From NCBI GenBank assembly GCA_038132575.1, contig JAYPRP010000004.1, positions 5,748-69,747 on the forward strand: DNA of 64,000 nucleotides, in the 5' to 3' direction. The notes below the pieces were generated by a model. The model ran no database searches. It was not told the DNA's origin and saw nothing but the letters and a program-made list of their open reading frames with translations. Made by a program: the position numbers and the translations under genes. Shown here one piece after another: positions 37,864 to 54,645 of the stretch (position 1 is the stretch's first letter; each line of letters opens with the position of its first letter). The stretch is from Rhodospirillaceae bacterium (lineage in GTDB: Bacteria > Pseudomonadota > Alphaproteobacteria > UBA6615).

Positions 37864-37959
37864 GGGATGGGGCCGGGGAACAATGTTGCAGGCGTTGATA
37901 TAAAGGCTGCAACGGATGCGTCCAGCACGGACGCTTCAAAATATCGGGAGACGGCGCGC

Positions 37960-39532: not shown

Positions 39533-39840
39533 AGCGGCGGGAACGGCCCGACCCGCTGCTCATACGCCTGGGTTGCCGGGTGCTCGATCATCGGCGTCAC
39601 ATCGACCGTCATCCAGGGGTGCAGTGGCAGCGAGGAGATGTCGGCGTGAAACTCCTCGAGGGTGTCGGCTTCCCAGATCGAGAAGTTCGCGCGCTCGCCG
39701 ATGATCCGCCAGACCTTGCGCATCTTCCCGGCCTGGATCAGCTCGATCGCACGGTCGGCCTCGGCATCGCCCAGCGCCTTGACCTGCGCCGGGTCCATGT
39801 CACCCGGCAGCTCGACCTTAATTCGCACCATGAACAGCAT
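39529..39840 (-). CDS. muconolactone delta-isomerase-family protein
   Basis: 103-aa 'MLFMVRIKVELPGDMDPAQVKAL...VWRIIGERANFSIWEADTLEEFHADISSLPLHPWMTVDVTPM' aligns with the CatC consensus I recall (MLFHVKM.V.LP.DMDP...W.W...G...N.SVFD...). Confidence 0.62.
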   Translation of the reverse strand: MLFMVRIKVELPGDMDPAQVKALGDAEADRAIELIQAGKMRKVWRIIGERANFSIWEADTLEEFHADISSLPLHPWMTVDVTPMIEHPATQAYEQRVGPFPPL

Positions 39841-39877
39841 GTGAGCACTCCTCTTCGTTTGGAAACGGGCCTCGGCC

Positions 39878-41272
39878 CTAGAAGTAGATTCCGAGCATGC
39901 GGCCCCAGAGATACTGCAGCGGCAGGACGAGCAGCACGCCGATCACGAAATATACCGCGGTCAGCCGGAAGGCCTCGCGCATCGGCACGCCGCCGACGGC
40001 CATCGCCATCGCGACGGGCGGGGCCTCGTGCGGGAACGGGTAGATCATCCAGCTCGGCACCTGGACCAGCAGCACGGATTCGAGGGGCCAGCCGGTTGCC
40101 TGTGCGATCGCGTCGGAGAAGGACGTCACGATCGGCGGGACCGCCGGGAAGGTCGTGACCACGCCAACCGCCGCACTGATCGCGAAGATCTCGTAGAAGG
40201 TGACGATGCCGCCGTCGCGGGTCAGGGGAATGTTTGCGAGTAGCAACTCGCCCATTGCACCGCCGACCCCGGAATGGTTGGCGATGGCGCCCATGCCGAT
40301 GACGCCGGCCACGAAGAGCCACGCCCCGTAGTTGACCTCTGTTGTGATAACCGAGGCCTGCAGAATACCGATCCCCGGGGTGATGCAGAGCAACGCCGCG
40401 GCGAGGGCGATCCAGGCCGGCGAGATGTCATGCAGGGAGTCCGTCATCCACAAGGCGAGCGCGATCAGCATGATTCCCATGAGCCGGCGCTCGGCGTTGC
40501 TCCAGCCCGTCTGCGTGGCGGGCCGGCTCCGGAGTTCGGGCTTCGCACCGAAGAGCAGCGTGATCAGGACGATGACGACCAGGACGCCCAGCAGCCCCAC
40601 GACCGGGAAATTCAGGAAGGTGTAGCCGAAATAGGTGAAGCCGATGTCGAAGATGCTCTCGGATGCGCCGACGAAGGCCATGTTGACGACGTTCGATGGC
40701 AGGATCCCGAAGGCGGGGATCGTTGCCCCCCAGCCGGCGGCCAGCACCAGGCCGTGGCGTGCGCGGGTGTTCTCGCCGAACCCGAGCTCTGTCGCCAGCG
40801 CGACGGCGAGCGGCGCCATCATGATGGCGCGCCCGGACGCGGATGGCATGATGAAGCTGAGCAGCACGCCGGCGATCGCGAGGCCTCCGGCCATCAGCAG
40901 GTAGCGCGCCGGCAGGTGGGTCATCAGCGCCTGGATCAGTCGGGCCCCGAGGCCGGACTTGTGGACCGCGATCGAGATCACGAAGCCGCCGAACACCAGC
41001 CAGGTGGCGCTGGCATGGAAGCCCGAGAAGGCGACGCTCGGCGGTGCGATCGAGAAGACCACCGTCAGCAGGAACAGGAGCAATGCGGTGATATACGGTG
41101 GAATTGCGTCAGTGGCCCAGAACGCAACGGCGAACAGGACGACACCGGCCGCCGGGAGCACGCCGGGCGTGTCCGTCCATAATGGCGCGGCCAGCAGCGC
41201 TGCGGAAATCAGCGTAGAGAAAAGGCCGAAAATCTGGGCGGCGTTGAGCCGCGTGTCCATGGGAAGGCGCAT
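39878..41272 (-). CDS. SLC13/DASS-family anion permease
   Basis: 464 aa with 12+ TM helices and a duplicated hairpin-loop architecture ('SGRAIMMAPL', 'GATIPAFGILPSN'). It is co-oriented with, and 38 bp upstream of, the isomerase-like gene. Confidence 0.5.
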   Translation of the reverse strand: MRLPMDTRLNAAQIFGLFSTLISAALLAAPLWTDTPGVLPAAGVVLFAVAFWATDAIPPYITALLLFLLTVVFSIAPPSVAFSGFHASATWLVFGGFVISIAVHKSGLGARLIQALMTHLPARYLLMAGGLAIAGVLLSFIMPSASGRAIMMAPLAVALATELGFGENTRARHGLVLAAGWGATIPAFGILPSNVVNMAFVGASESIFDIGFTYFGYTFLNFPVVGLLGVLVVIVLITLLFGAKPELRSRPATQTGWSNAERRLMGIMLIALALWMTDSLHDISPAWIALAAALLCITPGIGILQASVITTEVNYGAWLFVAGVIGMGAIANHSGVGGAMGELLLANIPLTRDGGIVTFYEIFAISAAVGVVTTFPAVPPIVTSFSDAIAQATGWPLESVLLVQVPSWMIYPFPHEAPPVAMAMAVGGVPMREAFRLTAVYFVIGVLLVLPLQYLWGRMLGIYF

Positions 41273-41458: not shown

Positions 41459-43588
41459 GTGTTGAACAGTGCCGCGAGCGATCCCGTCCTCTACCGGAAA
41501 GAGGGCGGGATATTGGTAATCACCATCAACAATCCGCCCGTGAATGCGCTGGCGAAGCAAGTGCGCATGGCGATGGCGGAGTTTCTCGAACTCTCGGGGG
41601 ACGATGACCAGGTGCGCGCCGTGGTCGTCTGTGGCAATGGCCGCAACCTCTGCGGCGGGGCCGATATTCGCGAATTCAATACGCCCGACCGCCAGGTCCG
41701 GCCCATGACCCGGGATCTGATGAACCTGATCGAGGCCATGGAGAAGCCGGTGGTCGCGGCCATCCACGGGCCGACACTGGGCGGCGGGCTCGAGCTGGCG
41801 CTAGGCTGTCACTTCCGGATTGCGGACCCCACCGCGACGCTCGGGCTGCCCGAGGTGCTGCGTGGTGTGATTCCCGGTGCCGGCGGCACCCAGCGGCTGC
41901 CGCGATTGGTCGGGTTTGCGAAGGCCGTGGAGATGATCACGACCGGCGTGTCCGTGGATGGCGCTCGCGCCCTGGAGGTTGGGCTGGTCGACAGGTTGGC
42001 CGATGGTGACGACCTGGTCGCCCAGGCGATCGGCTATGCCAACGAACTGGTCGCCGCGGCCGCCGCACCCCGGCGGGTGAGCGAGATGGCGATCGACCTG
42101 GATGCGGAGGCCGGCACCGCCCTCGTTGCCGAGACTCGCACAAAGCTCGAGAAGACCGCGCGTGGCATCCAGGCGCCGCTGCATTGCCTCGAAAGTGTCG
42201 CCAACACGCTGACGATGTCGTTTGCCGATGGCTGGGCGCGCGAGGCTGAGATCAGCCAGGCGGCGGTTGCATCGGTCGAGTCCCGTTCGCTGGTTCATGC
42301 GTTCTTCGCGGAACGCCAGGTCGTCCGGATTCCAGATATTCCCGACGAGACGCCACGGCGGGATATCGCGCGGACGGTCATCATCGGCGCGGGCACGATG
42401 GGCGGCGGCATCGCAATGTCCTTCGCCAACGCCGGGATGCCGGTGACGCTGATCGAGACCGATTCAGAGGCGCTCAACGGCGGGCTGGCGCGGATCGAGG
42501 CCAACTATGCCGCGACCCGTGATAGGGGGCGACTGAGCGCCGAGGACATGGAGACCCGGATGGGCCTGATCGGTGGTACGACCGGGCTGGAGGCGGCGGC
42601 CGACGCCGATCTCGTGATCGAGGCGGTCTTCGAGGAGATGGAGGTCAAGCAGTCGGTGTTCCGGGAACTCGACCGCATCGCTGGGGATGGCGCGATCCTC
42701 GCGACCAATACCTCGACCCTTGACGTGGACGCCATTGCCGCTGTCACCGGTCGGCCGGCAGATGTGCTGGGTATGCATTTCTTCAGCCCTGCCAACGTCA
42801 TGACCCTGCTCGAGATCGTGCGGGCTGCCGAGACGGCGCCGGACGTGATCGCGACAGTGCTCGATCTGGCGCGGCGGATTGGGAAGACCGGGGTTGTCGT
42901 CGGCGTGTGTGACGGCTTCGTCGGCAACCGGATGCTCGGGCCCTATTTTCGCCAGTGCGATTTCCTGGTCGAGGAAGGCGCCATGCCCGAGGACGTGGAC
43001 CGGGTGATCGAGGCATTCGGGTTCCGCATGGGACCCTTCCGGGTCTCGGACCTGGCCGGCCTCGACATCAGCTGGGCCATCGAGAAGCGCCGCGCCGAAA
43101 CACGGCCCGCCGACGAACGCTTCTCACCGCTTCTCGACCGGATATGCGAAATGGGGCGCTTCGGCCAGAAAACCGGTGCCGGCTGGTACCGCTACGAAGG
43201 TCGCGCGGCGGTGCCCGATCCGGAGATCGCGGCCCTGATCGAGGCGCGATCGGATGAAATGGGCATCGTACGGCGTGACATTTCCGACGATGAAATCCGC
43301 CAGCGCACCATTTATTCGCTGATCAACGAGGGCGCGAAGATCCTGGAGGAGGGGCTGGCGATCCGCGCCTCGGACATCGATGTCGTCTGGCTCCATGGCT
43401 ACGGCTTCCCGCGCTGGCGCGGCGGGCCGATGTTCTATGCCGACATGGTCGGCCTGCCGGAAGTTGTTTCGACCCTGGACGGGTATCACGCCGCTTGGGG
43501 CGACAAGTGGGCGCCCGCGACGCTCCTGCGCGAGCTCGCGGAAGCCGGCTCCAGCTTCAAGGAGTGGGGCGCGGGCCGGGCCGGTTAG
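41459..43588 (+). CDS. fused enoyl-CoA hydratase / 3-hydroxyacyl-CoA dehydrogenase (FadJ/FadB-like)
   Basis: An N-terminal crotonase fold ('ITINNPPVNAL', 'AAIHGPTLGGGLELALGCHFRIA') is followed by a 3HCDH Rossmann fold 'VIIGAGTMGGGIAMSF' and C-terminal domains. It starts at GTG 41459. Confidence 0.8.
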   Translation: MLNSAASDPVLYRKEGGILVITINNPPVNALAKQVRMAMAEFLELSGDDDQVRAVVVCGNGRNLCGGADIREFNTPDRQVRPMTRDLMNLIEAMEKPVVAAIHGPTLGGGLELALGCHFRIADPTATLGLPEVLRGVIPGAGGTQRLPRLVGFAKAVEMITTGVSVDGARALEVGLVDRLADGDDLVAQAIGYANELVAAAAAPRRVSEMAIDLDAEAGTALVAETRTKLEKTARGIQAPLHCLESVANTLTMSFADGWAREAEISQAAVASVESRSLVHAFFAERQVVRIPDIPDETPRRDIARTVIIGAGTMGGGIAMSFANAGMPVTLIETDSEALNGGLARIEANYAATRDRGRLSAEDMETRMGLIGGTTGLEAAADADLVIEAVFEEMEVKQSVFRELDRIAGDGAILATNTSTLDVDAIAAVTGRPADVLGMHFFSPANVMTLLEIVRAAETAPDVIATVLDLARRIGKTGVVVGVCDGFVGNRMLGPYFRQCDFLVEEGAMPEDVDRVIEAFGFRMGPFRVSDLAGLDISWAIEKRRAETRPADERFSPLLDRICEMGRFGQKTGAGWYRYEGRAAVPDPEIAALIEARSDEMGIVRRDISDDEIRQRTIYSLINEGAKILEEGLAIRASDIDVVWLHGYGFPRWRGGPMFYADMVGLPEVVSTLDGYHAAWGDKWAPATLLRELAEAGSSFKEWGAGRAG

Positions 43589-44352
43589 ACCGGCACCGTC
43601 GCGCCGCCGTCGACCACCAGGACCTGGCCGCTCATCCAGCTCGCCGCATCGGACGCGAGGAAGACCGCGGTGCCCGCAATGTCCTCGGGCTCGCCGAGGC
43701 GCCGCAACGGGGTTGCGGCGATCCGCGGTTCCGCGAATGCGGGGTCTTCCCACAGCGCGCGGGCGAAATCGGTCTTTACGAGGCCCGGCGCGATCGCGTT
43801 GACCCGGATGTTGTCGGGGCCGAGCTCGACGGCGAGGTTGCGGGCGAGCTGCATGTCGGCGGCTTTCGACACGTTGTAGGCGCCGATCACGTCCGAGCCA
43901 CGCAGGCCGCCGATCGAGGACACCAGGATGATCGCGCCGCCACCCACGGCGCGCAGGTCGGGCACGGTCATCTGGGCGAGCCAGAGCTGGGACTGGATGT
44001 TGGTCTGCATGACCTTGGCGAAGACATCGTCGGGAATGTCCATCGCCGGCCCGTAATAGGGGTTGATCGCGGCGTTGCAGACGACAATGTCCGCCGGACC
44101 CCAGTGATTCCGTGATGTGTCGACGAGGGCCTGGAGCTCCTCCTTGCGGCCCACGTTGCAGGGCACGCCCAGGGCGTCGTGGCCGGCGCCGGTCATTGCG
44201 GCCTCTGTTTCCGCGACCCGTTCCCGGTCCCGGCTCGAGACGGTGACCCGGGCGCCGGCGGCGGCCAGCGCGAAGGCGATGGCGCGGCCAATCCCCTTGG
44301 TCGAGCCGGTGACGATCGCGACCTTGCCGGTGAGGTCGAATGGTGCGCCCAT
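43585..44352 (-). CDS. SDR-family oxidoreductase
   Basis: The ATG at 44352 follows GGGGGAA. The cofactor motif 'TGSTKGIGRAIA' and a catalytic 'YNVSKAA' (YxxxK) are present. Confidence 0.85.
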   Translation of the reverse strand: MGAPFDLTGKVAIVTGSTKGIGRAIAFALAAAGARVTVSSRDRERVAETEAAMTGAGHDALGVPCNVGRKEELQALVDTSRNHWGPADIVVCNAAINPYYGPAMDIPDDVFAKVMQTNIQSQLWLAQMTVPDLRAVGGGAIILVSSIGGLRGSDVIGAYNVSKAADMQLARNLAVELGPDNIRVNAIAPGLVKTDFARALWEDPAFAEPRIAATPLRRLGEPEDIAGTAVFLASDAASWMSGQVLVVDGGATVPV

Positions 44353-44446
44353 GGCGATTCCCCCTACTGCATGATTTGACGCTATCCTAGGCCAAGTCGC
44401 GATGCCGGGCACATGTCCGATGCGGAAGATGACAAGGGGGAAACCG

Positions 44447-45681
<1,235 letters not shown>

Positions 45682-45685
<4 letters not shown>

Positions 45686-45843
45686 TCGCTGTCATCTTCG
45701 AGGTCTGGCCCGCCGAAGGGCGCCTCGACGACTATCTCGAAATTGCCCACAACCTGGCGTCCGAGCTCGAAAAGATCGACGGTTTCATTTCGGTCGAGCG
45801 GTTCGAGAGCATCTACAACCCAGGCCGGAACGCAGCACTATGA
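45682..45843 (+). CDS. 53-aa ORF resembling the N-terminal half of an ABM (antibiotic-biosynthesis-monooxygenase) domain; possible LvaB-like accessory protein or gene remnant
   Basis: '[43 protein letters not shown]' has its ATG overlapping the ACAD stop and its TGA overlapping the downstream ATG (ATGA at both ends). Confidence 0.35.
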
Positions 45844-47087
45844 CCGAACCCCGCAACCTCTCCATCGACGGTGACCGCCTGTGGCAGTCGATCATGGACA
45901 TTGCCGAGATCGGCCCGACCGAGAAGGGCGGCAGCCGTCGGCTCGCACTCACCGACCTTGACCGCGAGGCGCGCGATCTGTTCGTCGACTGGAGCAAGGC
46001 GGCCGGATGCGCCGTGAGCGTGGATCGAATGGGTAACATCTTCGCGCGCCGTGCCGGGCGCGACGACTCCCTGCCGCCGGTGGTGACCGGCAGCCATCTG
46101 GATACTCAGCCAACAGGCGGAAAGTTCGACGGGATATTCGGGGTCCTCGCCGGCCTCGAGGTGATCCGCAGCCTCAACGACCTGGACTATGAGACCGAGC
46201 ATCCGATCGAGGTGGTGGTCTGGACCAACGAGGAGGGCAGCCGGTTCGCACCCGCCATGATCTCGTCGGGCGTCTTCGGCGGCCAGCATACGCTGGAGCA
46301 TGGCCTGTCCCGCGCCGACGTGGACGGGCTCACTATCGGCGAGGAGCTCGAACGGATCGGCTATGCTGGCGACCTGCCAGTCGGTGGTCGCGATCTGCAC
46401 GCCTATGTGGAGGCGCATATCGAGCAGGGGCCGATCCTCGAGGACGAGGACATTTCCATCGGCGTCGTCACGGGCGCTCAGGGCCAGCGCTGGTACGAGA
46501 TCACGCTGACAGGCCAGGAGTCACACGCGGGCACCACGCCCATGGAACGGCGCAAGGACGCGCTCGTCGGCGCGGCTCGGATCGTCGGGCTTGTCCACCG
46601 GATCGGCATGGACAACGCACCGGATGCGCGCTCGACTGTGGGCATGATCGAATCCTATCCGAACTCGCGGAACGTCATCCCGGGGCAGGTCTTCATGACG
46701 GCCGAGTTCCGCCATCCCGACGACGACATTCTGCGGGACATGGATACCAAGCTGCGGGAGGGGCTGCGGGAGATCACGAAAGAGATAGGGCTCGAATGCG
46801 AGTTCGAGGAGATCTTCTATATCGCGCCGATCGTCTTCGCCGACCGCTGCGTCAACGCCGTCCGCAACGCGGCCGAGAGCCGCAACCTGTTGGCCCGCGA
46901 CATCATCTCCGGCGCCGGCCACGACGCGTGCAACGTTGCCGCCGTGGCACCGACCTCGATGATCTTCATTCCCTGCGTGGACGGGATCAGCCACAACGAG
47001 ATCGAAGACGCGAAGCCCGAATGGGTGACCGCCGGCGGCCAGGTCCTGCTGGGTGCGATGCTGGAACTCGCAGGCGGTGACGTCTGA
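45840..47087 (+). CDS. M20-family Zn-dependent amidohydrolase (N-carbamoyl-L-amino-acid / allantoate amidohydrolase type)
   Basis: The metal ligands 'TGSHLDTQPTGGKFDG' and 'VVWTNEEGSRF' and the dimerisation domain are present. The start is ATGA-coupled to the upstream small ORF. Confidence 0.72.
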   Translation: MTEPRNLSIDGDRLWQSIMDIAEIGPTEKGGSRRLALTDLDREARDLFVDWSKAAGCAVSVDRMGNIFARRAGRDDSLPPVVTGSHLDTQPTGGKFDGIFGVLAGLEVIRSLNDLDYETEHPIEVVVWTNEEGSRFAPAMISSGVFGGQHTLEHGLSRADVDGLTIGEELERIGYAGDLPVGGRDLHAYVEAHIEQGPILEDEDISIGVVTGAQGQRWYEITLTGQESHAGTTPMERRKDALVGAARIVGLVHRIGMDNAPDARSTVGMIESYPNSRNVIPGQVFMTAEFRHPDDDILRDMDTKLREGLREITKEIGLECEFEEIFYIAPIVFADRCVNAVRNAAESRNLLARDIISGAGHDACNVAAVAPTSMIFIPCVDGISHNEIEDAKPEWVTAGGQVLLGAMLELAGGDV

Positions 47088-47140
47088 TTGGCGCGGACGC
47101 CGCTTCTGGCTAGACTTTCTCAAACGCGTTCGGGGGGACG

Positions 47141-48784
47141 GTGATGAAAATCTCGGAAACATACGAGCAGGCTTGGGGCGACTGGCGCTGGGACGTGCCA
47201 GACCGCTTCAACATGGGCGTCTCGGTCTGCGATGCGCAGGACGCGAAGGCGACGGCCCTGATCGTGCCGCAGCCGGACGGCGGGCGCCGCGAGTACACGT
47301 TTGGCGATCTGAAGGCGCTGTCGAGCCGTCTGTCTAACCTGTTCGTGGCCCACGGCCTCCAGCGTGGCGACCGGGTCGCGGTGCTGCTACCGCAGATGCC
47401 GGAGACGCTCGTGGCGCACATCGCGGGCTATCGCGCCGGGCTGGTCGTGATGCCGCTGGCGCAACTCTTCGGGCCGGATGCGCTCGAGTACAGGCTGTCC
47501 GACAGCGGCGCGCGCGCGATCGTCACGGACAGGGCGAGTTGCGAGAAGATCGACCAGATCAGGGATTCGCTCCCCGACCTTCAGCTGGTTCTTTCAGTGG
47601 ACGGGCCGGCCGACGACGGGGCCGGCGGGGCACTCGACTTTCATGCGGAACTCGAGCGTGCGAAGGACAGCTTCGCCCCGGTCGATACAGCGAACGGCGA
47701 CCCAGCGCTGCTGATCTACACCTCGGGTACCACGGGCAATCCTAAGGGCGCGCTGCTGCCCCACCGGACCATGATCGGGCATGTGCCGGGCGTGGACTTC
47801 ATCTTCGACTTTCTGCCCCAGCCGGGCGACGTCATGTGGACCAACGCCGACTGGGCTTGGATCGGCGCGCTGATGGATTCGGCCATGCCGGCGCTCTATC
47901 ACGGCATCCCGCAGGTGGTGAATCCGCCCGGTCGCTTCGACCCCGAGGCGGTGTTCGACCTTCTGGATCGTTACGGGGTGCGCTGCGCGTTCATTCCGCC
48001 GACGGGCCTCAAGGTTATGCGTCAGGTCGAGAACCCGCGCGGGCGCTACAACTACGATCTGCGGACGATGTTCTCCGGCGGCGAGGCGCTGGGCACCTCG
48101 CTCATGGACTGGGGCCGCGAACAGTTGGGAGTCACGATCAACGAGGCCTACGGCCAGACCGAGTGCAACGTCATCGTCGGCTGCTGCGCGACGATCATGA
48201 CCCCGCCCGACGGCTCCATGGGCCGCGCATCGCCGGGCCACACGCTGCGCATCATGGACGAAAATGCCAACATCCAGGCGTCGGGCGATCTGGGCACCAT
48301 CTGTGTCAAGGCGCCTGACCCCGTGATGTTCCTCGAATACTGGAAGAACCCGGAGGCGACCAAGGAGAAGTTTCTCACCGACGAGAACGGAGATCAGTGG
48401 CTCGACACCGGCGACAAGGCGACCATGGACGATGAGGGCTGGATCTACTTCGTCGGCCGCGCCGACGACGTCATCAACTCTGCCGGCTACCGCATCGGTC
48501 CGGCCGAGGTGGAGAACTCGCTGCTCACCCACCCCGCCGTGCAGATGTCGGCAGTGATCGGCGTACCCGACGAGGCGCGGGGCGAGATGGTGAAGGCCTA
48601 TGTAATCCTCAAGGACGGCCAGACTCCGAGCGACGCGCTGGCCGAGGAGATCCAGAACCATGTGAAGACGCGGCTCGCGGCGCACGAGTATCCGCGCGCG
48701 GTTGCGTTCGTGGACGAGCTGCCGATGACGACGACCGGGAAGATCCAGCGCAAGGTGCTGCGTGAGCGCGAGGCGTCGTCCTGA
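47141..48784 (+). CDS. AMP-dependent acyl-CoA synthetase (medium-chain type)
   Basis: The AMP-binding motif 'LIYTSGTTGNPKGA', 'GYRIGPAEVE' and the C-terminal 'TTTGKIQRKVLRE' are present. Confidence 0.8.
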   Translation: MMKISETYEQAWGDWRWDVPDRFNMGVSVCDAQDAKATALIVPQPDGGRREYTFGDLKALSSRLSNLFVAHGLQRGDRVAVLLPQMPETLVAHIAGYRAGLVVMPLAQLFGPDALEYRLSDSGARAIVTDRASCEKIDQIRDSLPDLQLVLSVDGPADDGAGGALDFHAELERAKDSFAPVDTANGDPALLIYTSGTTGNPKGALLPHRTMIGHVPGVDFIFDFLPQPGDVMWTNADWAWIGALMDSAMPALYHGIPQVVNPPGRFDPEAVFDLLDRYGVRCAFIPPTGLKVMRQVENPRGRYNYDLRTMFSGGEALGTSLMDWGREQLGVTINEAYGQTECNVIVGCCATIMTPPDGSMGRASPGHTLRIMDENANIQASGDLGTICVKAPDPVMFLEYWKNPEATKEKFLTDENGDQWLDTGDKATMDDEGWIYFVGRADDVINSAGYRIGPAEVENSLLTHPAVQMSAVIGVPDEARGEMVKAYVILKDGQTPSDALAEEIQNHVKTRLAAHEYPRAVAFVDELPMTTTGKIQRKVLREREASS

Positions 48785-48788
48785 GCCG

Positions 48789-49262
48789 ATGGCGAAGTTC
48801 ACACATCCCGATTTGTTCTTGGACCTGGTGGGCGAGGAGCTCGGTGTCAGCGACTGGGTGCTGATCGATCAGAAGATGATCGACGCGTTCGCGGATGCAA
48901 CCAACGATCACCAGTGGGTGCATGTGGACGCCGAAAGGGCCGCCCGCGAGCTGCCGACCGGATCGACGATTGCGCACGGGTTCCTGGTCCTCTCGCTGCT
49001 GGCATCGCTCAGCTACGAGATCTTTGACGTCGCAAACGTCGCGCATGAGCTGAACTACGGCCTGAACAAGGTCCGTTTCACGGCCATGGTCCCGGCGGGC
49101 TCGCGTGTCCGCCTGCGCCAGGCGCTGACAGCCGCCGAGAAGCGCGACGACGGCGGTGTCTTCCTCGATCTCTTGGCGACGATGGAGCTCGAGGGCAGCG
49201 AGCGCCCTGCCGCGGTGATCGAAAACCTGCGGCTGATCTACCCTGAGGAAGGCTCGGGCTGA
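48789..49262 (+). CDS. MaoC-like (R)-specific enoyl-CoA hydratase / dehydratase
   Basis: The ATG at 48789 gives a hot-dog fold with 'DAFADATNDHQWVHVDAERAARELPTGSTIAHGFL'. Confidence 0.75.
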   Translation: MAKFTHPDLFLDLVGEELGVSDWVLIDQKMIDAFADATNDHQWVHVDAERAARELPTGSTIAHGFLVLSLLASLSYEIFDVANVAHELNYGLNKVRFTAMVPAGSRVRLRQALTAAEKRDDGGVFLDLLATMELEGSERPAAVIENLRLIYPEEGSG

Positions 49263-49273
49263 ATCGAAACGGC

Positions 49274-49334
49274 CCTCATCCTGAGCTTGTCGAAGGAGAG
49301 GGCCGCATCCTCATGCTTCGACAGGCTCAGCAAA
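49274..49334. repeat. REP-like intergenic repeat, copy 1
   Basis: 'CCTCATCCTGAGCTTGTCGAAGGAGAGGGCCGCATCCTCATGCTTCGACAGGCTCAGCA' has an internal imperfect palindrome (GAGCTTGTCGAAG / CTTCGACAGGCTC). Homologous copies lie at 50485-50549 and 58027-58134. Confidence 0.6.
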
Positions 49335-49347
49335 AGGGTGCTTGAAG

Positions 49348-49370
49348 ATGCCTGGGCCATGCCCGGGCAT
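49348..49370. terminator. GC-rich hairpin ATGCCTGGGC-cat-GCCCGGGCAT between convergent genes
   Basis: Near-identical to the hairpin at 15074-15096. It lies between the MaoC (+) and APH-kinase (-) 3' ends. Confidence 0.35.
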
Positions 49371-49382
49371 GACGAAACTGGC

Positions 49383-50459
49383 TTATCGCCCGTTCCCCTC
49401 CACCAGCCCCCAGGCGCGCACGGCGAGCTGGCGCGCGAGGTCGCGGCGCAGCAGCGCCTCGGGCGAGGACGCGTTTCCCTGCAGGCCCCGGAAATAGACG
49501 CCCTGGATGATGGCGGCGAGCCGGAACAGCGAGAGCACCAGGTAGAAGGTCCAGTTCTCGATCTCGCCGCGCCCGGTGTGCCGGCAGTAGGCGGCGACAT
49601 AGTCCTCCTCCGATGGAATGCCCGGGGTCGAGGGGTCGAGGCCGCGCATGTCGCCGAAGGATTCCTCGGGCCAGTGATAAGGCAGGCAGTTGTAGGCGAG
49701 GTCCGACAGCGGGTGGCCGAGGGTTGAGAGCTCCCAGTCGAGCACAGCGATCACCTTGGGTTCGTCATGGGCGACGATCAGGTTCTCGAGCCGGAAATCC
49801 CCGTGGACGATGGTGGTCTCGCTGTCGTCGGGCATGTTCTCGGGCAGCCAGACCATGAGCCGGTCCATCTCGGGAAGTTCGTCGGTCTTGGAGGCCTCAT
49901 ACTGCTTCGACCAGCGGGCGACCTGGCGGCCCATATAACCGCCAACGCGCCCATAGTTGCCGAGCCCGACGGCCTCGAAGTCCACCTGGTGTAGCGCGGC
50001 AAGGGTCGCGATCATGGACTCCGACACGGCCGCGCGTTCGCCTTCCGGCAGGCCGGGCATTGACGGGTCGTGGAAGACGCGCCCGTCGGCGTGCTCCATC
50101 AGGAAGAACTCGGTGCCGATGATCGCCGTGTCCTCGCACAGCGCGAGTGTGCGCACGACCGGGACGCCGGTGTCGGCCAGCGCGGAAGTGATGCGATGCT
50201 CCCGGTCGACTGCGTGGGCCGACGGCAGCAGCTCGCCCGGCGGCTTCTTGCGCAGGACATAGCGCCGCCCTCCCGCGTCGGTCAGCAGGAAGGTGGGGTT
50301 TGACATGCCGCCCTGGAACTGGGCGATCATAAGTGGACCTTCAAACCCGTAGATATTTTCCGACATCCAGGCGACGAGCACCATGTCGTCGAACCGGTGC
50401 TGCTCCAGGACGGACACCACCTGGTCGGTACGCGAAACGGTGCGAACGGCGGTACTCAT
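49383..50459 (-). CDS. phosphotransferase-family protein (APH/ChoK-like kinase; ACAD10/11 kinase-domain homologue)
   Basis: The ATG at 50459 follows GAGGTGA. A Brenner motif 'IVHGDFRLENLIV' and 'VLDWELSTLGHPLSDLA' are present. Confidence 0.8.
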   Translation of the reverse strand: MSTAVRTVSRTDQVVSVLEQHRFDDMVLVAWMSENIYGFEGPLMIAQFQGGMSNPTFLLTDAGGRRYVLRKKPPGELLPSAHAVDREHRITSALADTGVPVVRTLALCEDTAIIGTEFFLMEHADGRVFHDPSMPGLPEGERAAVSESMIATLAALHQVDFEAVGLGNYGRVGGYMGRQVARWSKQYEASKTDELPEMDRLMVWLPENMPDDSETTIVHGDFRLENLIVAHDEPKVIAVLDWELSTLGHPLSDLAYNCLPYHWPEESFGDMRGLDPSTPGIPSEEDYVAAYCRHTGRGEIENWTFYLVLSLFRLAAIIQGVYFRGLQGNASSPEALLRRDLARQLAVRAWGLVEGNGR

Positions 50460-50484
50460 TCGGTCACCTCAGATTCTTCCATTG

Positions 50485-50549
50485 CCTCATCCTGAGCTTG
50501 ACGAAGGATGAGTTGGGGAGTGTCTTCTCATACTTCGACAGGCTTAGCA
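50485..50549. repeat. REP-like intergenic repeat, copy 2 (same orientation as copy 1)
   Basis: 'CCTCATCCTGAGCTTGACGAAGGATGAG...CATACTTCGACAGGCTTAGCA' lies immediately upstream of the APH gene start. Confidence 0.6.
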
Positions 50550-50558
50550 TGAGGAGTC

Positions 50559-51035
50559 TCATTTCTTCCCGATGGGCTCGGGGAAGAGCAGGCGCACGGT
50601 CTGGGCGATGGCCGCCGGGCGGTCGCTGCCCTCGAGTTCGATGATGCTGTCGAGAATAAGGTGTACGCTGCCGTCCGGGCGTTTTTCGGCGCTCGCGAGG
50701 GACTGGCGCAGCCGGACCCGTGAATTCACGGGCACCATGGCCGTGAACCGCACCTTGTTGAGCCCGTAGTTGATGGTGTGGGCGAGATTATCGACCACGA
50801 AGAACGGATAGCTCAGCCCGGGAATCAGGGACAGGACAAGGAAGCCGTGGGCGATGGTTGTGCCGGTCGGCATTTCGCTCGCGGCGCGTTCCGGATCGAC
50901 ATGCAGCCACTGGTGGTCGTTCGTGACGTCGGCGAAGGCGTCGATCTGTGCCTGGTCGATGGTGACCCAGTCGCTGACGCCGAGTTCCTGGCCCACCTTG
51001 TCGAGGAACTCGTCGGGATGCCCGTAGTGAGACAA
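50559..51035 (-). CDS. MaoC-like enoyl-CoA hydratase (paralogue of 48789-49262, inverted)
   Basis: 158 aa, about 70% identical to the upstream MaoC ('DAFADVTNDHQWLHVDPERAASEMPTGTTIAHGFL'). Confidence 0.75.
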   Translation of the reverse strand: MSHYGHPDEFLDKVGQELGVSDWVTIDQAQIDAFADVTNDHQWLHVDPERAASEMPTGTTIAHGFLVLSLIPGLSYPFFVVDNLAHTINYGLNKVRFTAMVPVNSRVRLRQSLASAEKRPDGSVHLILDSIIELEGSDRPAAIAQTVRLLFPEPIGKK

Positions 51036-51164
51036 TTTCCGTACTCCGTTTGACCGTCCAATTGACCGGTGGTTCGGCGCTGCGCATCATGGCCGCGCGT
51101 GGCCGGTATTCTAGAGCCACGCGAGCGGTTTTGCATATGTGGGGACGACCCCCCGGGGGCGGAG

Positions 51165-53258
51165 ATGAGCGATATCGTCGGCTATGAGATTGAGGGGCGG
51201 GTGGCCGTCCTGGCGATCGACAACCCACCGGTCAACGCGCTGGGGCATGCGGTGCGCGAGGGCATCGTCGCCCGGGCGGAGCAGGCGGCGGCCGACGATG
51301 GGGTGGACGCCATCTTATTGATCGGTGCGGGGCGGACCTTCCCTGCCGGTGCGGACATCCGCGAGTTCGACCAGCCCGCCCGCGAGCCGCACCTGGTGGC
51401 GGTGGTCGATCGCATGGATACGATCGAGAAGCCGATCGTCGCGGCGATTCACGGGACCGCGCTCGGCGGCGGGCTCGAGCTGGCGCTCGGCTGTCATTTC
51501 CGGGTCGCGTCGCCCGATGCGCGGGTCGGCCTTCCCGAGGTGAATCTCGGCATTTTCCCGGGTGCCGCGGGGACCCAGCGTCTGCCGCGGGTGGCGGGGC
51601 TCGACCACGCACTCGAGATGATCGTGTTGGGCAAACCTATCGGCGCGGCGACGGCCCACGACTACGGGATCGTGGACGAGATCATCGAGGGCGATCTGCG
51701 GGCCGGCGCGGTCGCCTTCGCCGAGAAGATCGTCGCGGACGGCACGCCCCGCCGGGTCTCCAGCGAGCCGCAGGACGGGATCGGCACGCCCGAGGAGCAT
51801 GCGGAGACCATCGACAGGTATCGCGACCTATCCAACCGGCGCTTCCGGGGTCAGGACTCGCCCCACCAGGCGATCGAGAGCGTCGTGGACGGACTGCGGA
51901 TGCCCTACCCGGACGCGGTGGCGGCCGACCGCAAGCGTTTCGAGGCGTGCAAGACCAGTACCCAGTCGGCGGCGCTGCGCTATGCGTTCTTCGCCGAGCG
52001 TGCGGCGGCGAAAATCCCCGATATCGGCAAGGAGGTCGCCCCGCGCGATATCGGTTCGGCGGGCGTGATCGGCGCCGGCACCATGGGTCGCGGGATCGCC
52101 ATCAGCCTCGCGGATGCCGGCCTGCCCGTGACCGTCGTGGAGACGGGGCAGGAGGCGCTGGATGCCGGTATGGCCGAGCTCGCGAAGCTCTACGAGGCGA
52201 TGGTCGCGCGCGGGCGGATCGACGCCGCGACGAAGGACGAGCGGCTGGCCCGCATCACGGGCGCGGTCGATTACGGGGCACTGGGAGATGCGGACCTGGT
52301 GATCGAGGCCGCGTTCGAGGACCTGGAGGTCAAGAAGGATATCTTCCGGGCGCTCGACGGCGTTGCGAAGCCCGGCGCGGTTCTCGCCACCAACACCTCC
52401 TACATGGACATCGACGCGATCGCAGACGCCACGTCCCGGCCGGAAGACGTCATCGGCCTGCACTACTTCGTGCCCGCGAACGTCATGCGGCTTCTCGAGG
52501 TGGTGCGCGGTGCCGCGAGCGCGCCGGATGCGATCATGACGGGCTTGGCGCTCGCCAAGCGAACCGGCAAGATCGGTGTTGTGGCGGGTGTGTGCCACGG
52601 CTTCATCGCCAACCGCTCACGCCTGCCGCTCGTGCGTGAGGCGACCTTCCTGATTGAGGAGGGGGCGACGCCGGCGCAGGTGGACAAGGTCCTGACCGAC
52701 CTCGGGATGCCGCTCGGGCCGCTCGCGGTGAGCGACATGTCGGGGCTGGATGTGAGCTGGCGGATGCGCCAGTCGCTGGCCCACGAGCGCGATCCCGAGG
52801 CCCGTTACATGCATCTGGCCGACCGGATGTGCGAGTTGGGTCGCTTTGGCATCAAGGCCGGCCGGGGCTGGTACGCCTACGAGGACGGCGGGCGCCGTCC
52901 CCAGCCGGACGAGGAGGTCGAGGCCATCGCGGCGGCAGTGGCCGTGGAGCAGGGCATTGCCCGACGCGAGATCTCCGACGATGAGATCCGCGCGCGCTGC
53001 CTCTACGCGGCGATCAACGAGGGCGCCAAGATTCTGGATGAGGGGATCGCGGCGCGCGCGAGCGACATCGACATGATGTGGCTCTACGGGTTCGGATTCC
53101 CGCGGTGGCGCGGCGGCATCATGTTCATGGCGGATCAGATCGGTCTCCCCGAGATTCTCGGGCAGGTGCGGGCGTTCGTGGCGGCACATGGCAAGCTCTG
53201 GGCCCCGTCGCCGCTGCTTGAACGGCTCGCGGCCGAGGGTGGCAGCTTCACTCGCTAG
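51165..53258 (+). CDS. fused enoyl-CoA hydratase / 3-hydroxyacyl-CoA dehydrogenase (second FadJ-like paralogue)
   Basis: The ATG at 51165 follows GGGGGCGGAG. 'AIDNPPVNAL', 'AAIHGTALGGGLELALGCHFRVA' and 'GVIGAGTMGRGIAISL' are present; about 55% identical to the 41459 gene. Confidence 0.8.
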   Translation: MSDIVGYEIEGRVAVLAIDNPPVNALGHAVREGIVARAEQAAADDGVDAILLIGAGRTFPAGADIREFDQPAREPHLVAVVDRMDTIEKPIVAAIHGTALGGGLELALGCHFRVASPDARVGLPEVNLGIFPGAAGTQRLPRVAGLDHALEMIVLGKPIGAATAHDYGIVDEIIEGDLRAGAVAFAEKIVADGTPRRVSSEPQDGIGTPEEHAETIDRYRDLSNRRFRGQDSPHQAIESVVDGLRMPYPDAVAADRKRFEACKTSTQSAALRYAFFAERAAAKIPDIGKEVAPRDIGSAGVIGAGTMGRGIAISLADAGLPVTVVETGQEALDAGMAELAKLYEAMVARGRIDAATKDERLARITGAVDYGALGDADLVIEAAFEDLEVKKDIFRALDGVAKPGAVLATNTSYMDIDAIADATSRPEDVIGLHYFVPANVMRLLEVVRGAASAPDAIMTGLALAKRTGKIGVVAGVCHGFIANRSRLPLVREATFLIEEGATPAQVDKVLTDLGMPLGPLAVSDMSGLDVSWRMRQSLAHERDPEARYMHLADRMCELGRFGIKAGRGWYAYEDGGRRPQPDEEVEAIAAAVAVEQGIARREISDDEIRARCLYAAINEGAKILDEGIAARASDIDMMWLYGFGFPRWRGGIMFMADQIGLPEILGQVRAFVAAHGKLWAPSPLLERLAAEGGSFTR

Positions 53259-54552: not shown

Positions 54553-54577
54553 GCACGCTGCAATCCTGAACGTGTGA

Positions 54578-54622
54578 GCGGGGATGCCGGTGCATCCCCG
54601 CTTGCGTGTTTGCCCCTTTTTC
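54578..54622 (+). terminator. rho-independent terminator/attenuator after the binding-protein gene
   Basis: 'GCGGGGATGC-cggt-GCATCCCCGC' is a 10-bp perfect stem, followed by 'TTGCGTGTTTGCCCCTTTTTCTG'. Confidence 0.55.
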
Positions 54623-54645
54623 TGACGGACGACCGATAGCGCCCG

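What the first reader, a model, noticed from the sequence alone, without database searches (positions are those of the whole stretch)
43585..51035. Candidate 4-hydroxyacyl-CoA (lva-like) catabolic locus with a split ACAD10/11-like pair: an APH-type kinase plus an ACAD
Within 7.5 kb lie an SDR (43585-44352), an ACAD (44447-45685), a tiny coupled ORF (45682-45843), an M20 amidohydrolase, a medium-chain acyl-CoA synthetase (47141-48784), two MaoC hydratases and a phosphotransferase-family kinase (49383-50459), flanked by two FadJ-like hydratase/dehydrogenase fusions. The kinase plus ACAD plus SDR plus synthetase plus small protein set matches the Pseudomonas putida lvaABCDE levulinate/4-hydroxyvalerate operon. 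It also matches the domain content of mammalian ACAD10/ACAD11, where a kinase phosphorylates 4-hydroxyacyl-CoA and the ACAD domain eliminates phosphate to give enoyl-CoA. Here the genes are rearranged, duplicated (MaoC x2, FadJ x2), and joined by an M20 amidase not present in lva. That suggests a variant pathway, perhaps for N-acyl or lactone-derived 4-hydroxy acids.
Basis: partly seen in the sequence, partly recalled or inferred. Interest (0 to 1): 0.7.

Follow-up and report, generated by a model that had tools for sequence, protein, structure and literature searches.

The report
Split bacterial ACAD10/11-type kinase–ACAD pair
An uncultured marine alphaproteobacterium carries, as two separate genes among fatty-acid oxidation genes, the kinase and the atypical acyl-CoA dehydrogenase that mammals fuse into ACAD10/ACAD11 to feed 4-hydroxy fatty acids into beta-oxidation; this is a new example of a system already shown in other bacteria, not a new pathway.

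Summary
The kinase (49383-50459, minus strand) and the ACAD (44447-45685, plus strand) are clear ACAD10/11-type proteins. They are 47% and 57% identical to the two halves of ACAD11, and every published signature residue is kept. The two genes stay linked across 22 related marine MAGs, lie next to each other in distant phyla, and occur fused in other proteins. The most likely function is a 4-hydroxyacyl-CoA kinase plus a phosphate-eliminating ACAD that produces 2-enoyl-CoA.

The claim that the locus matches lvaABCDE, with an M20 amidase joined in, is weaker. M20, the acyl-CoA synthetase, MaoC1 and the tiny ORF lie in a hypervariable slot between kinase and ACAD. That slot ranges from 30 bp to more than 10 kb in relatives and carries unrelated cargo. 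The 53-aa ORF is what a ~3.25 kb deletion left of a 106-113 aa ABM-domain gene, not an LvaB analogue. The genes lie on both strands and no regulator is present.

The conserved core is FadJ1, SDR, ACAD, [slot], kinase, MaoC2, FadJ2. Split bacterial pairs were already shown biochemically in P. putida and B. pseudomallei. This is a new member of a known kind, of modest interest.

The parts
41459..43588 (+). FadJ1: FadB/FadJ-like enoyl-CoA hydratase / 3-hydroxyacyl-CoA dehydrogenase fusion (709 aa). Part of the conserved core.
   Evidence: Pfam ECH_1 + 3HCDH_N + 3HCDH. NCBIfam FadJ scores 470 bits, below the equivalog cutoff of 869. It is 50% identical to FadJ2. It is conserved next to the SDR in relatives.
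43585..44352 (-). SDR (255 aa), divergent from the ACAD. Part of the conserved core. Candidate 4-oxoacyl-CoA reductase or carbonyl reductase.
   Evidence: Pfam adh_short_C2 3.9e-64. Best solved homologue is DHRS4, 4e-64. It is present in all 22 relatives that have both KIN and ACAD.
44447..45685 (+). ACAD10/11- or LvaC-type acyl-CoA dehydrogenase-fold enzyme (412 aa). Inferred 4-phosphoacyl-CoA phosphate-eliminating enzyme.
   Evidence: It is 57% identical to the human ACAD11 ACAD domain, E~1e-144, against 1e-44 for MCAD-type ACADs. R255, H263, R266 and D382 correspond to ACAD11 R626, H634, R637 and D753. The [12 protein letters not shown] and [10 protein letters not shown] motifs are present.
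45682..45843 (+). 53-aa remnant of an ABM-domain gene, left by a deletion. Probably non-functional.
   Evidence: Pfam ABM positions 1-49 of 78. Relatives encode 106-113 aa proteins that are identical through ...[10 protein letters not shown]. A ~3.25 kb deletion relative to L004, L005 and L030 has its junction at 45816-45825. The same junction in L006 has decayed and now carries stop codons.
45840..47087 (+). M20 amidase of the hydantoinase/carbamoylase (allantoate amidohydrolase) family (415 aa). Cargo of the variable slot.
   Evidence: NCBIfam NF006769 scores 657 bits (cutoff 452) and TIGR01879 scores 428 (cutoff 204). It is present in 11 of 22 relatives, usually with a GGT and an amidohydrolase.
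47141..48784 (+). Medium-chain (ACSM-like) acyl-CoA synthetase (probable start 47144). Cargo of the variable slot.
   Evidence: Pfam AMP-binding. Solved homologues are ACSM2A at 3e-81 and 4-hydroxybutyrate-CoA ligase at 4e-70. An orthologue is present in only 5 of 22 relatives.
48762..49262 (+). MaoC1: hot-dog (R)-specific enoyl-CoA hydratase paralogue (probable start 48789). Travels with the ACS in the slot.
   Evidence: Pfam MaoC_dehydratas. It is 69% identical to MaoC2. An orthologue occurs only where the ACS is present.
49270..49340 (.). Copy 1 of a ~70-nt palindromic intergenic element, lying 3' of the kinase.
   Evidence: Folding energy is -41.2 kcal/mol, z = -4.8. There are two copies in the window where 0 are expected.
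49383..50459 (-). ACAD10/11-type APH-fold kinase (358 aa). Inferred 4-hydroxyacyl-CoA kinase.
   Evidence: It is 47% identical to the mouse ACAD11 kinase domain (E=1e-96), 49% to 3dxp and 35% to 9o56; the next APH family scores 1e-14. D221 and N226 correspond to ACAD11 D220 and N225, and the DWE motif is present. Fused kinase-ACAD proteins are among its closest relatives.
50485..50555 (.). Copy 2 of the palindromic element, in the MaoC2-kinase spacer.
   Evidence: Folding energy is -37.3 kcal/mol, z = -4.5.
50559..51035 (-). MaoC2: (R)-specific enoyl-CoA hydratase (158 aa), immediately upstream of the kinase and co-directional with it. Part of the conserved core.
   Evidence: Pfam MaoC. Best solved homologue is M. 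tuberculosis Rv0130, 2.5e-42. It lies next to the kinase in every clade member.
51069..53258 (+). FadJ2: second FadB/FadJ-like hydratase/dehydrogenase (probable start ATG 51162), divergent from MaoC2. Part of the conserved core.
   Evidence: Pfam ECH_1 + 3HCDH_N + 3HCDH. It is conserved in all clade loci.

Best explanation
The locus encodes a split, two-gene version of the ACAD10/ACAD11 (LvaA/LvaC-type) system, which lets 4-hydroxy acids enter beta-oxidation.

Inferred pathway:
1. A 4-hydroxyacyl-CoA is made by an acyl-CoA synthetase. This could be the ACSM-like ligase in the slot, the second ligase at 59259-60935, or another one. If the substrate is a 4-oxoacyl-CoA, the SDR may reduce it first.
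2. The APH-fold kinase (49383-50459) phosphorylates it on the 4-hydroxyl using ATP.
3. The atypical FAD-containing ACAD (44447-45685) eliminates the phosphate and gives 2-enoyl-CoA with no net redox change.
4. The neighbouring MaoC hydratase and the two FadB/J-like hydratase/dehydrogenases carry the enoyl-CoA on to 3-ketoacyl-CoA. The thiolase is encoded elsewhere.

What is shown here: family membership, conserved catalytic and phosphate-site residues, conserved linkage, and fusion of the two genes in other organisms.

What is inferred: the enzyme activities, the substrate and its chain length, and the roles of the SDR, MaoC2 and FadJ1/2.

M20, ACS, MaoC1 and the ABM remnant are passengers in a hypervariable slot between the convergent kinase and ACAD genes. 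They are not core parts of the pathway.
For: - Kinase homology. Against the mouse ACAD11 kinase domain it scores E=1e-96 and 47% identity. Against C. pinatubonensis 3dxp it scores 2.6e-108. The next APH family scores 1e-14.
- Kinase residues. The catalytic Asp and Asn (HGDFRLEN) and the DWE motif are conserved (residue roles from PMC12440821 and PMC13596139).
- ACAD homology. It scores 483 bits and 57% identity to the ACAD11 ACAD domain, against 156 bits for the best ordinary ACAD.
- ACAD residues. R255, H263, R266 and D382 match ACAD11 R626, H634, R637 and the catalytic D753. The [12 protein letters not shown] and QGRLGPG motifs shared with LvaC and the Burkholderia orthologue are present.
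- Fusions. HAD-kinase-ACAD and kinase-ACAD fusion proteins match both window proteins at 48-51% identity.
- Linkage. Kinase and ACAD stay linked in 22 marine alphaproteobacterial MAGs with 72-96% kinase identity. They are adjacent in Rhodobacteraceae, Deltaproteobacteria, Bryobacterales, Psychrobacter and Oligoflexus and on a Haematobacter plasmid that also carries a crotonase, a thiolase and a Liv-type ABC transporter.
- Biochemical precedent. Split bacterial pairs catalyse these reactions in P. putida and in B. pseudomallei (Q63VL0/Q63VL1) (PMC11342911; PMC12440821).
- MaoC2. Its best solved homologue is the (R)-hydratase Rv0130.
Against: - No activity, expression or growth data exist for this uncultured organism.
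- The kinase and ACAD are convergent, not co-transcribed, and are separated by a variable slot.
- No thiolase and no regulator lie in the locus.
- Several kinases that are 50-56% identical have no ACAD10/11-type ACAD within 10 kb (L031-L038). The kinase family is therefore not strictly tied to this ACAD.
- A 2026 preprint reports that prokaryotic homologues of the ACAD10 kinase domain phosphorylate 1-O-alkylglycerols (PMC13596139). The kinase substrate is therefore not settled by homology alone.
- Synteny with FadJ, SDR and MaoC is seen only within one clade and may partly reflect shared ancestry.
Confidence: 0.68

Rival explanations
1. The region is one lva-like catabolic locus in which the SDR acts as LvaD, the ACS as LvaE and the tiny ORF as LvaB. 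The M20 amidase is an integral added step, giving a variant pathway for N-acyl or lactone-derived 4-hydroxy acids.
For: - The same protein families as lvaA, C, D and E are present within 7.5 kb.
- In this window ACAD, ABM remnant, M20, ACS and MaoC1 are tightly packed on one strand, with overlapping stop and start codons. Co-transcription is therefore likely.
- The ACS is of the medium-chain / 4-hydroxybutyrate-ligase type.
- The SDR is conserved next to the ACAD in all relatives.
- A dienelactone-hydrolase-family gene and an esterase lie in the flanks.
Against: - M20 is present in only 11 of 22 relatives and ACS+MaoC1 in only 5 of 22. The slot that holds them shrinks to 30 bp in L029. Elsewhere it carries unrelated cargo: GMC oxidoreductase, MR/MLE enolase, NMO, HxlR, a PEMT-like protein, GGT and an amidohydrolase.
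- The tight packing in this window was created by a ~3.25 kb deletion.
- The tiny ORF is a truncated ABM gene and is a pseudogene in L006. No small ORF lies next to the kinase.
- M20 belongs to the carbamoylase / allantoate amidohydrolase family, not to an N-acyl-amino-acid or lactone hydrolase family.
- The genes are on both strands and there is no LvaR-type regulator.
Confidence: 0.1
2. The kinase is mainly a 1-O-alkylglycerol (ether-lipid salvage) kinase, as recently reported for ACAD10 and several prokaryotic homologues. Its position near the ACAD and the beta-oxidation genes says nothing about its substrate.
For: - The preprint PMC13596139 reports that prokaryotic ACAD10-kinase homologues phosphorylate chimyl alcohol, some in an acetyl-CoA-dependent way.
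- The window kinase is 35% identical to the C. thermarum enzyme crystallised there. I take that enzyme to be 9o56, based on the matching HYDxK motif and residue numbering.
- Many related kinases have no ACAD partner nearby.
Against: - The kinase is persistently linked, and in other organisms fused, to an ACAD whose active site keeps the residues proposed to bind the 4-phosphate.
- Split bacterial pairs were shown to act on 4-hydroxyacyl-CoA (PMC11342911).
- No ether-lipid gene (for example AGPS) was seen among the window genes scanned.
- The context consists of acyl-CoA metabolism genes.
Confidence: 0.08
3. The cluster is ordinary. The ACAD is a conventional beta-oxidation dehydrogenase, the APH-family protein is an antibiotic or small-molecule kinase, and the two are unrelated.
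For: Public annotation is generic: 'aminoglycoside phosphotransferase family kinase' and 'acyl-CoA dehydrogenase'. No specific NCBIfam model matches either protein.
Against: - The ACAD has Asp in place of the canonical catalytic Glu, plus the R...HxxR phosphate-site helix that is specific to ACAD10/11 and LvaC.
- There is a gap of more than 300 bits between ACAD11 and ordinary ACADs.
- The kinase scores only 36 bits against the APH(3') model, whose cutoff is 205.
- Linkage and fusion with the ACAD recur across lineages.
Confidence: 0.02

Closest known systems
Burkholderia pseudomallei split pair Q63VL0 (kinase) / Q63VL1 (ACAD), shown to replace the ACAD10 domains in vitro (Paquay et al. 2024, PMC11342911); the C. 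pinatubonensis 3dxp kinase structure belongs to the same group
   Same: The kinase and ACAD are separate genes of the ACAD10/11-like subtype. The window kinase is 49% identical to 3dxp and 47% to the ACAD11 kinase domain. The paper reports 38-51% identity between such bacterial kinases and ACAD10/11, against 29% for LvaA. The ACAD signature motifs are identical.
   Different: In B. pseudomallei the two genes have consecutive UniProt accessions, so they are probably adjacent. Here they are convergent and separated by a 3.7 kb variable slot. The kinase here is co-directional with a MaoC hydratase. The host is an uncultured marine alphaproteobacterium. The Burkholderia sequences could not be retrieved for direct comparison.
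Mammalian ACAD10 / ACAD11 (Rashan et al. 2025, PMC12440821; Paquay et al. 2024)
   Same: Both catalytic modules are homologous at 47% (kinase) and 57% (ACAD) identity. The conserved residues are kinase D220/N225 and ACAD R626/H634/R637/D753. The inferred chemistry is the same: 4-hydroxyacyl-CoA to 4-phosphoacyl-CoA to 2-enoyl-CoA.
   Different: The mammalian enzymes are single polypeptides, and ACAD10 also has a HAD domain. Here there are two genes on opposite strands, no HAD domain, and no organelle targeting.
Pseudomonas putida lvaABCDE levulinate operon (Rand et al. 2017, as described in PMC6692424, PMC11342911 and PMC12440821)
   Same: The enzyme logic (kinase plus ACAD-fold phosphate eliminase) and the protein families present (APH kinase, ACAD, SDR, acyl-CoA synthetase) are the same.
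   Different: There is no LvaB-like partner and no single co-directional operon or LvaR regulator. The synthetase is dispensable slot cargo. By the published identities, the kinase is of the ACAD10/11-like subtype and not the divergent LvaA subtype. Extra FadB/J-like and MaoC genes are present.
Haematobacter massiliensis plasmid pOT1-4 locus (NZ_CP035514.1, 78.3-88.9 kb)
   Same: It has a phosphotransferase and an ACAD10/11-type ACAD (its gene is 75.5% identical at the nucleotide level over 694 bases). They are divergent and sit next to a crotonase, a thiolase and a Liv-type ABC transporter. The window likewise has a Liv-type ABC transporter, at 53380-58020.
   Different: The Haematobacter locus has an AraC regulator and a thiolase. 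It has no MaoC, SDR or FadB/J fusions in the region shown. It is on a plasmid and is annotated only generically.

Membership tests
ACAD10/ACAD11-LvaA/LvaC-type 4-hydroxyacyl-CoA kinase + phosphate-eliminating ACAD system | The kinase has an APH / protein-kinase-like fold and is closest to the ACAD10/11 kinase domain, not to other APH families. | tested here: met
   E=1e-96 and 47% identity to the mouse ACAD11 kinase domain; 2.6e-108 to 3dxp; next APH family 1e-14. ACAD10/11-like fusion proteins are among the top 150 of 1.84 billion representatives.
ACAD10/ACAD11-LvaA/LvaC-type 4-hydroxyacyl-CoA kinase + phosphate-eliminating ACAD system | Kinase catalytic Asp (ACAD11 D220), Asn (N225) and the DWE metal-binding motif. 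| tested here: met
   Window D221 and N226 lie in VHGDFRLEN, and the DWE motif lies in VLDWELS. The 8v3u D220A mutant aligns at the same column. Residue roles come from PMC12440821 and PMC13596139.
ACAD10/ACAD11-LvaA/LvaC-type 4-hydroxyacyl-CoA kinase + phosphate-eliminating ACAD system | The ACAD is closer to the ACAD10/11 ACAD domain than to any conventional ACAD. | tested here: met
   483-493 bits to ACAD11 and 4hr3, against 156 bits or less to MCAD, SCAD and similar enzymes. It is 57% identical to human ACAD11.
ACAD10/ACAD11-LvaA/LvaC-type 4-hydroxyacyl-CoA kinase + phosphate-eliminating ACAD system | A catalytic Asp replaces the canonical Glu (D753), and the R626/H634/R637 (HCMR) phosphate-site helix is present, together with the [12 protein letters not shown] and QGRLGPG motifs. 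| tested here: met
   R255, H263, R266 and D382 align to those positions, with a constant -1 offset in chain numbering. The motifs are visible and match the table in the supplement of PMC11342911.
ACAD10/ACAD11-LvaA/LvaC-type 4-hydroxyacyl-CoA kinase + phosphate-eliminating ACAD system | The kinase and ACAD are genomically linked or fused. | tested here: met
   They are linked in 22 of 22 clade loci where the flank reaches far enough, adjacent in 6 distant lineages and on one plasmid, and fused in P0013 and P0049.
ACAD10/ACAD11-LvaA/LvaC-type 4-hydroxyacyl-CoA kinase + phosphate-eliminating ACAD system | ATP-dependent phosphorylation of 4-hydroxyacyl-CoA, and FAD-dependent, redox-neutral elimination of phosphate to give 2-enoyl-CoA. 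| not testable with these tools
   This needs enzyme assays.
Pseudomonas putida lvaABCDE operon | LvaB: a ~12 kDa partner protein encoded next to the kinase and required together with it. | tested here: not met
   The only small ORF (45682-45843) follows the ACAD, not the kinase. It is the 5' remnant of an ABM-domain gene truncated by a deletion, and it has decayed in L006. Both spacers flanking the kinase are about 100-120 nt and are occupied by a palindromic repeat.
Pseudomonas putida lvaABCDE operon | A single co-directional operon under an adjacent LvaR regulator. | tested here: not met
   The genes are on both strands in at least 4 units. No regulator domain was found in the genes scanned between 30.7 and 64 kb.
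Pseudomonas putida lvaABCDE operon | LvaD orthologue: an SDR that reduces 4-oxoacyl-CoA. | tested here: inconclusive
   An SDR is conserved beside the ACAD in all relatives. Its best homologues are generic or DHRS4-like. No LvaD sequence was available for comparison.
Pseudomonas putida lvaABCDE operon | LvaE orthologue: an acyl-CoA synthetase that belongs to the locus. | tested here: inconclusive
   An ACSM-like ligase is present, but only in 5 of 22 relatives and inside the variable slot. No LvaE sequence was available.
FadJ / FadB (E. coli-type fatty acid oxidation complex alpha subunit) | Score above the NCBIfam equivalog cutoff, and pairing with a FadI/FadA thiolase. | tested here: not met
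   The scores are 470 and 444 bits against cutoffs of about 869. No thiolase lies in the window. The domain architecture (ECH + 3HCDH) matches, so they are best called FadB/J-like.
Hydantoinase/carbamoylase-family M20 amidase (TIGR01879; allantoate amidohydrolase subfamily NF006769) | Score above the curated cutoffs. | tested here: met
   TIGR01879 scores 428 bits (cutoff 204) and NF006769 scores 657 bits (cutoff 452).

The most novel reading that the evidence does not exclude
The block conserved in this marine alphaproteobacterial clade may be a dedicated route for gamma-lactones or for 4-hydroxy and 4-oxo acids. Such compounds could be lipid-peroxidation products or algal lactones in seawater. 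The block would comprise a dienelactone-hydrolase-family enzyme, two GSTs, a muconolactone-isomerase-like protein, a DASS transporter, FadJ1, the SDR, the ACAD, the kinase, MaoC2 and FadJ2. In this reading the MaoC hydratase co-directional with the kinase is an obligatory third component that is absent from the lva and ACAD10/11 systems.
Probability: 0.15. Interest if true: 0.5.

Novelty: new member of a known kind. Interest (0 to 1): 0.3.

Why it matters
The locus places the recently explained ACAD10/11 chemistry, which lets 4-hydroxy acids enter beta-oxidation through a 4-phosphoacyl-CoA, in abundant uncultured marine Alphaproteobacteria. There the two genes are annotated only as 'aminoglycoside phosphotransferase' and 'acyl-CoA dehydrogenase'. 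This allows better annotation of a family with about 1,900 clusters at 50% identity. It also suggests that 4-hydroxy acids or gamma-lactones are a carbon source in the ocean. The case also shows that a tidy-looking operon (ACAD, small ORF, M20, ACS, MaoC) can be produced by a recent deletion in a variable slot. No new biochemistry is implied.

Tried and rejected
- Lva sequences. Rand et al. 2017 (PMC5705400) is not held. The supplement of PMC11342911 gives only accession numbers and short motifs. LvaA-E sequences were therefore unavailable, and orthology of the SDR to LvaD, of the ACS to LvaE, or of any ORF to LvaB could not be tested directly.
- PDB entry 9o56. I first suspected it was LvaA. 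Its HYDxK motif and residue numbering match the Caldalkalibacillus thermarum ACAD10-kinase homologue described in PMC13596139.
- Tiny ORF as LvaB analogue. Rejected after comparison with relatives.
- MaoC-kinase pairing as a widespread rule. Rejected. Outside the marine clade only L048 has a MaoC gene, and it lies 3 kb away.
- Megablast of the region against plasmids. It found only partial hits of at most 12% coverage, so the locus is not a known plasmid module.
- Promoter and terminator scan. The counts were no higher than in shuffled sequence.
- Rfam scan of 43-53.5 kb. It found nothing meaningful.
- Not run. I did not predict structures or use the search for homologous proteins, because sequence homology to solved structures was already decisive.

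Full report
**Observation**

The window has 66% G+C. Third-codon-position G+C content picks out one clear gene per stretch.

| Gene | Coordinates | Strand | Notes |
|---|---|---|---|
| FadJ1 (FadB/J-like fusion) | 41459-43588 | + | |
| SDR | 43585-44352 | - | |
| ACAD | 44447-45685 | + | |
| 53-aa ORF | 45682-45843 | + | half an ABM domain |
| M20 amidase | 45840-47087 | + | hydantoinase/carbamoylase family |
| AMP-ligase (ACS) | 47141-48784 | + | ACSM2A-like |
| MaoC1 | 48762-49262 | + | |
| APH-family kinase | 49383-50459 | - | |
| MaoC2 | 50559-51035 | - | |
| FadJ2 (FadB/J-like fusion) | 51069-53258 | + | |

The two FadJ-like proteins are 50% identical to each other, and the two MaoC proteins are 69% identical. 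The genes lie on both strands. FadJ1 and the SDR are convergent. The SDR and ACAD are divergent. ACAD through MaoC1 run together on the plus strand and converge on the kinase. MaoC2 and the kinase run together on the minus strand. MaoC2 and FadJ2 are divergent.

**What the kinase and the ACAD are**

The kinase matches the kinase domain of mouse ACAD11 at E=1e-96 and 47% identity. It matches the C. pinatubonensis protein 3dxp at 2.6e-108 and 49% identity. The next APH family scores only 1e-14.

The ACAD matches the ACAD domain of human and mouse ACAD11 at about 1e-144 and 57% identity. It matches M. abscessus 4hr3 at 8e-147. Conventional ACADs reach only 1e-44.

The residues that the ACAD11 cryo-EM study names as decisive are all conserved (PMC12440821).
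- Kinase D220 and N225 correspond to window D221 and N226. The K* mutant chain 8v3u carries Ala at exactly this column.
- ACAD R626, H634 and R637 (the HCMR helix) and the catalytic D753 correspond to window R255, H263, R266 and D382.
- The [12 protein letters not shown] and QGRLGPG motifs that Paquay et al. tabulate for ACAD10, ACAD11, LvaC and the Burkholderia enzyme are also present.

A search of 1.84 billion representative proteins finds 1,900 clusters at E<=1e-30. Among the 150 best hits are proteins of 700-1,007 aa. Two of these, P0049 and P0013, carry both a kinase domain and an ACAD domain. Each domain is 48-51% identical to the corresponding window protein.

The two window genes are therefore a split form of the ACAD10/11 architecture.

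**Linkage in other genomes**

The kinase has relatives in 55 genome loci. The close ones, at 72-96% identity, are all uncultured marine Alphaproteobacteria or Rhodospirillaceae MAGs. In all 22 such loci that contain both genes, the order is FadJ2 | MaoC2-KIN -> <- ACAD | SDR | FadJ1.

Further away, the kinase lies next to an ACAD10/11-type ACAD in Rhodobacteraceae, Deltaproteobacteria, Bryobacterales, Psychrobacter, Oligoflexus and one Rhodospirillales MAG. The same pairing occurs on a Haematobacter massiliensis plasmid, beside an AraC regulator, a crotonase, a thiolase and a Liv-type ABC transporter.

Some kinases that are 50-56% identical have no such ACAD within 10 kb.

**The slot between kinase and ACAD**

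The space between the convergent kinase and ACAD genes is hypervariable. It is 30 bp in L029 and 0.5-1.3 kb in L002, L022-L024, L026 and L028. It reaches 7.6 kb in L003 and more than 10 kb in L007.

Its cargo differs between MAGs:
- a PEMT-like membrane protein
- a full-length ABM protein
- an amidohydrolase
- a gamma-glutamyltranspeptidase (GGT)
- the M20 amidase
- the ACS together with MaoC1
- a GMC oxidoreductase
- an MR/MLE enolase-superfamily protein
- a nitronate monooxygenase
- an HxlR regulator

Among the 22 loci, M20 is present in 11 and ACS+MaoC1 in 5.

The window's 53-aa ORF is identical in register to the first 48 residues of a 106-113 aa ABM protein in relatives, and then diverges. 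DNA alignment shows a deletion of about 3.25 kb relative to L004, L005 and L030. The junction is at 45816-45825, with a ~10-bp overlap. The deletion removed the 3' half of the ABM gene, the amidohydrolase and the GGT, and it placed M20 directly behind the ACAD. L006 shares the junction, but its remnant now contains stop codons.

The compact ACAD - small ORF - M20 - ACS - MaoC1 string is therefore a recent product of deletion. It is not an ancestral operon, and the small ORF is not an LvaB analogue.

**Mechanism**

The best-supported reading is as follows. The kinase phosphorylates a 4-hydroxyacyl-CoA. The ACAD eliminates the phosphate to give 2-enoyl-CoA. MaoC2 and the FadB/J-like enzymes then take the product towards 3-ketoacyl-CoA. 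MaoC2's closest solved homologue is the (R)-hydratase Rv0130.

The SDR may supply 4-hydroxyacyl-CoA from 4-oxoacyl-CoA, as LvaD does, but this is inference. Its closest solved homologue is the carbonyl reductase DHRS4. Activation could come from the slot ligase or from the second ligase at 59259-60935. No thiolase or regulator is present in the window genes scanned.

Family membership, catalytic residues and linkage are shown here. Activities, substrate and chain length are inferred from the P. putida, B. pseudomallei and mammalian enzymes (PMC11342911, PMC12440821).

**Rival explanations**

- The full lva-like model with M20 as an integral step is weakened by the slot data and the deletion.
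- An alkylglycerol-kinase role is not excluded for the kinase alone (preprint PMC13596139). It fits the conserved ACAD partnership and the acyl-CoA context poorly.
- An ordinary ACAD plus an antibiotic kinase is refuted by the residue pattern and the score gaps.

**Comparison with known systems and novelty**

Split bacterial pairs of this type are already characterised. LvaA/LvaC act in P. putida. Q63VL0/Q63VL1 from B. pseudomallei can replace the ACAD10 domains in vitro.

By identity to ACAD11 and 3dxp, the window pair belongs to the ACAD10/11-like subtype. The locus fails two defining features of the lva operon: an LvaB partner, and a single operon with LvaR. Two others, LvaD and LvaE orthology, could not be tested.

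Public annotation of these exact proteins is generic. This is a new member of a known kind. The local peculiarities are a MaoC gene co-directional with the kinase, two FadB/J-like genes, and a variable slot.

**Context and side observations**

The left flank is conserved in relatives. It holds a dienelactone-hydrolase-family protein, two GSTs, a muconolactone-isomerase-like protein and a DASS/CitMHS transporter. The right flank holds a Liv-type ABC transporter, an esterase and a second ligase. This is compatible with use of lactones or 4-hydroxy acids but does not prove it.

Two copies of a ~70-nt palindromic element flank the kinase gene. Their folding energies are -41 and -37 kcal/mol, and none are expected by chance. 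Copies of the element's core sequence also occur in the MaoC2-kinase spacer or within the variable slot in relatives. No Rfam family matches.

Noticed in passing
window 49270-49340 and 50485-50555; also L003 (4130, 7824), L005 (9953), L023 (11145), L030 (14348): A ~70-nt imperfect palindromic element flanks the kinase gene on both sides, in direct orientation. Its core is CCTCATCCTGAGCTTG[T/A]CGAAGGA ... CTTCGACAGGCT. Both copies form strong hairpins (-41.2 and -37.3 kcal/mol, z about -4.6). There are only two copies in the 64 kb window where 0 are expected, and no Rfam family matches. In relatives the core motif recurs in the MaoC2-kinase spacer or within the variable slot. It may be a REP- or MITE-like element involved in termination or in rearrangements of the slot.
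   Followed up: partly
window 45686-49382; the equivalent KIN-ACAD interval in L002-L030 and L044: The interval between the convergent kinase and ACAD genes is a hotspot of gene-content change among closely related MAGs. It ranges from 30 bp to more than 10 kb and carries at least ten different unrelated cargo genes. No integrase or tRNA was seen in the intervals inspected.
   Followed up: partly
window 36817-41272: The left flank is conserved in relatives. It holds a dienelactone-hydrolase-family protein (36817-37935, -), two GST paralogues (37840-38739 and 38690-39532, +), a muconolactone delta-isomerase-family protein (39529-39840, -) and a CitMHS/DASS anion transporter (39878-41272, -). 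The presence of lactone-related families next to a putative 4-hydroxy-acid module is suggestive but untested.
   Followed up: partly
window 53380-60935: The right flank holds a Liv-type ABC transporter (binding protein, two permeases, two ATPases; 53380-58020, +). It is followed by an Abhydrolase_3 esterase (58290-59258, -) and a second AMP-ligase (59259-60935, -; 30% identical to the slot ligase). A Liv-type ABC transporter also accompanies the kinase/ACAD pair on the Haematobacter plasmid (L056).
   Followed up: partly
window 43585-44352: The core SDR's best solved homologue is mammalian DHRS4, a peroxisomal carbonyl reductase (E=4e-64), well ahead of the 7-alpha-HSDH and FabG types. ACAD11 is also peroxisomal, so a conserved functional partnership is conceivable. 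This was not examined.
   Followed up: no
window 61341-63999: A 509-aa ORF (61341-62870, -) has only a weak PaaA/PaaC-like match, below the gathering score. An overlapping 412-aa reading frame running off the window end (62764-63999, -) has no Pfam match.
   Followed up: no
window 33800-35545 and the slot cargo of L003, L004, L005, L030 and L044: The window keeps a gamma-glutamyltranspeptidase at 33800-35545. The GGT that relatives carry in the kinase-ACAD slot has been deleted here. Whether the two are paralogues was not checked.
   Followed up: no
window 15166-17770 and 26310-30737: A 3-hydroxyacyl-CoA dehydrogenase-like gene (about 15166-16026, -) lies next to electron-transfer-flavoprotein genes. 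ETF-beta is at 17021-17770 (-). A molybdopterin CO-dehydrogenase / xanthine-dehydrogenase-family cluster lies at about 27043-30737. The upstream part of the window otherwise holds housekeeping genes such as argininosuccinate lyase and diaminopimelate decarboxylase, so the window is chromosomal.
   Followed up: no
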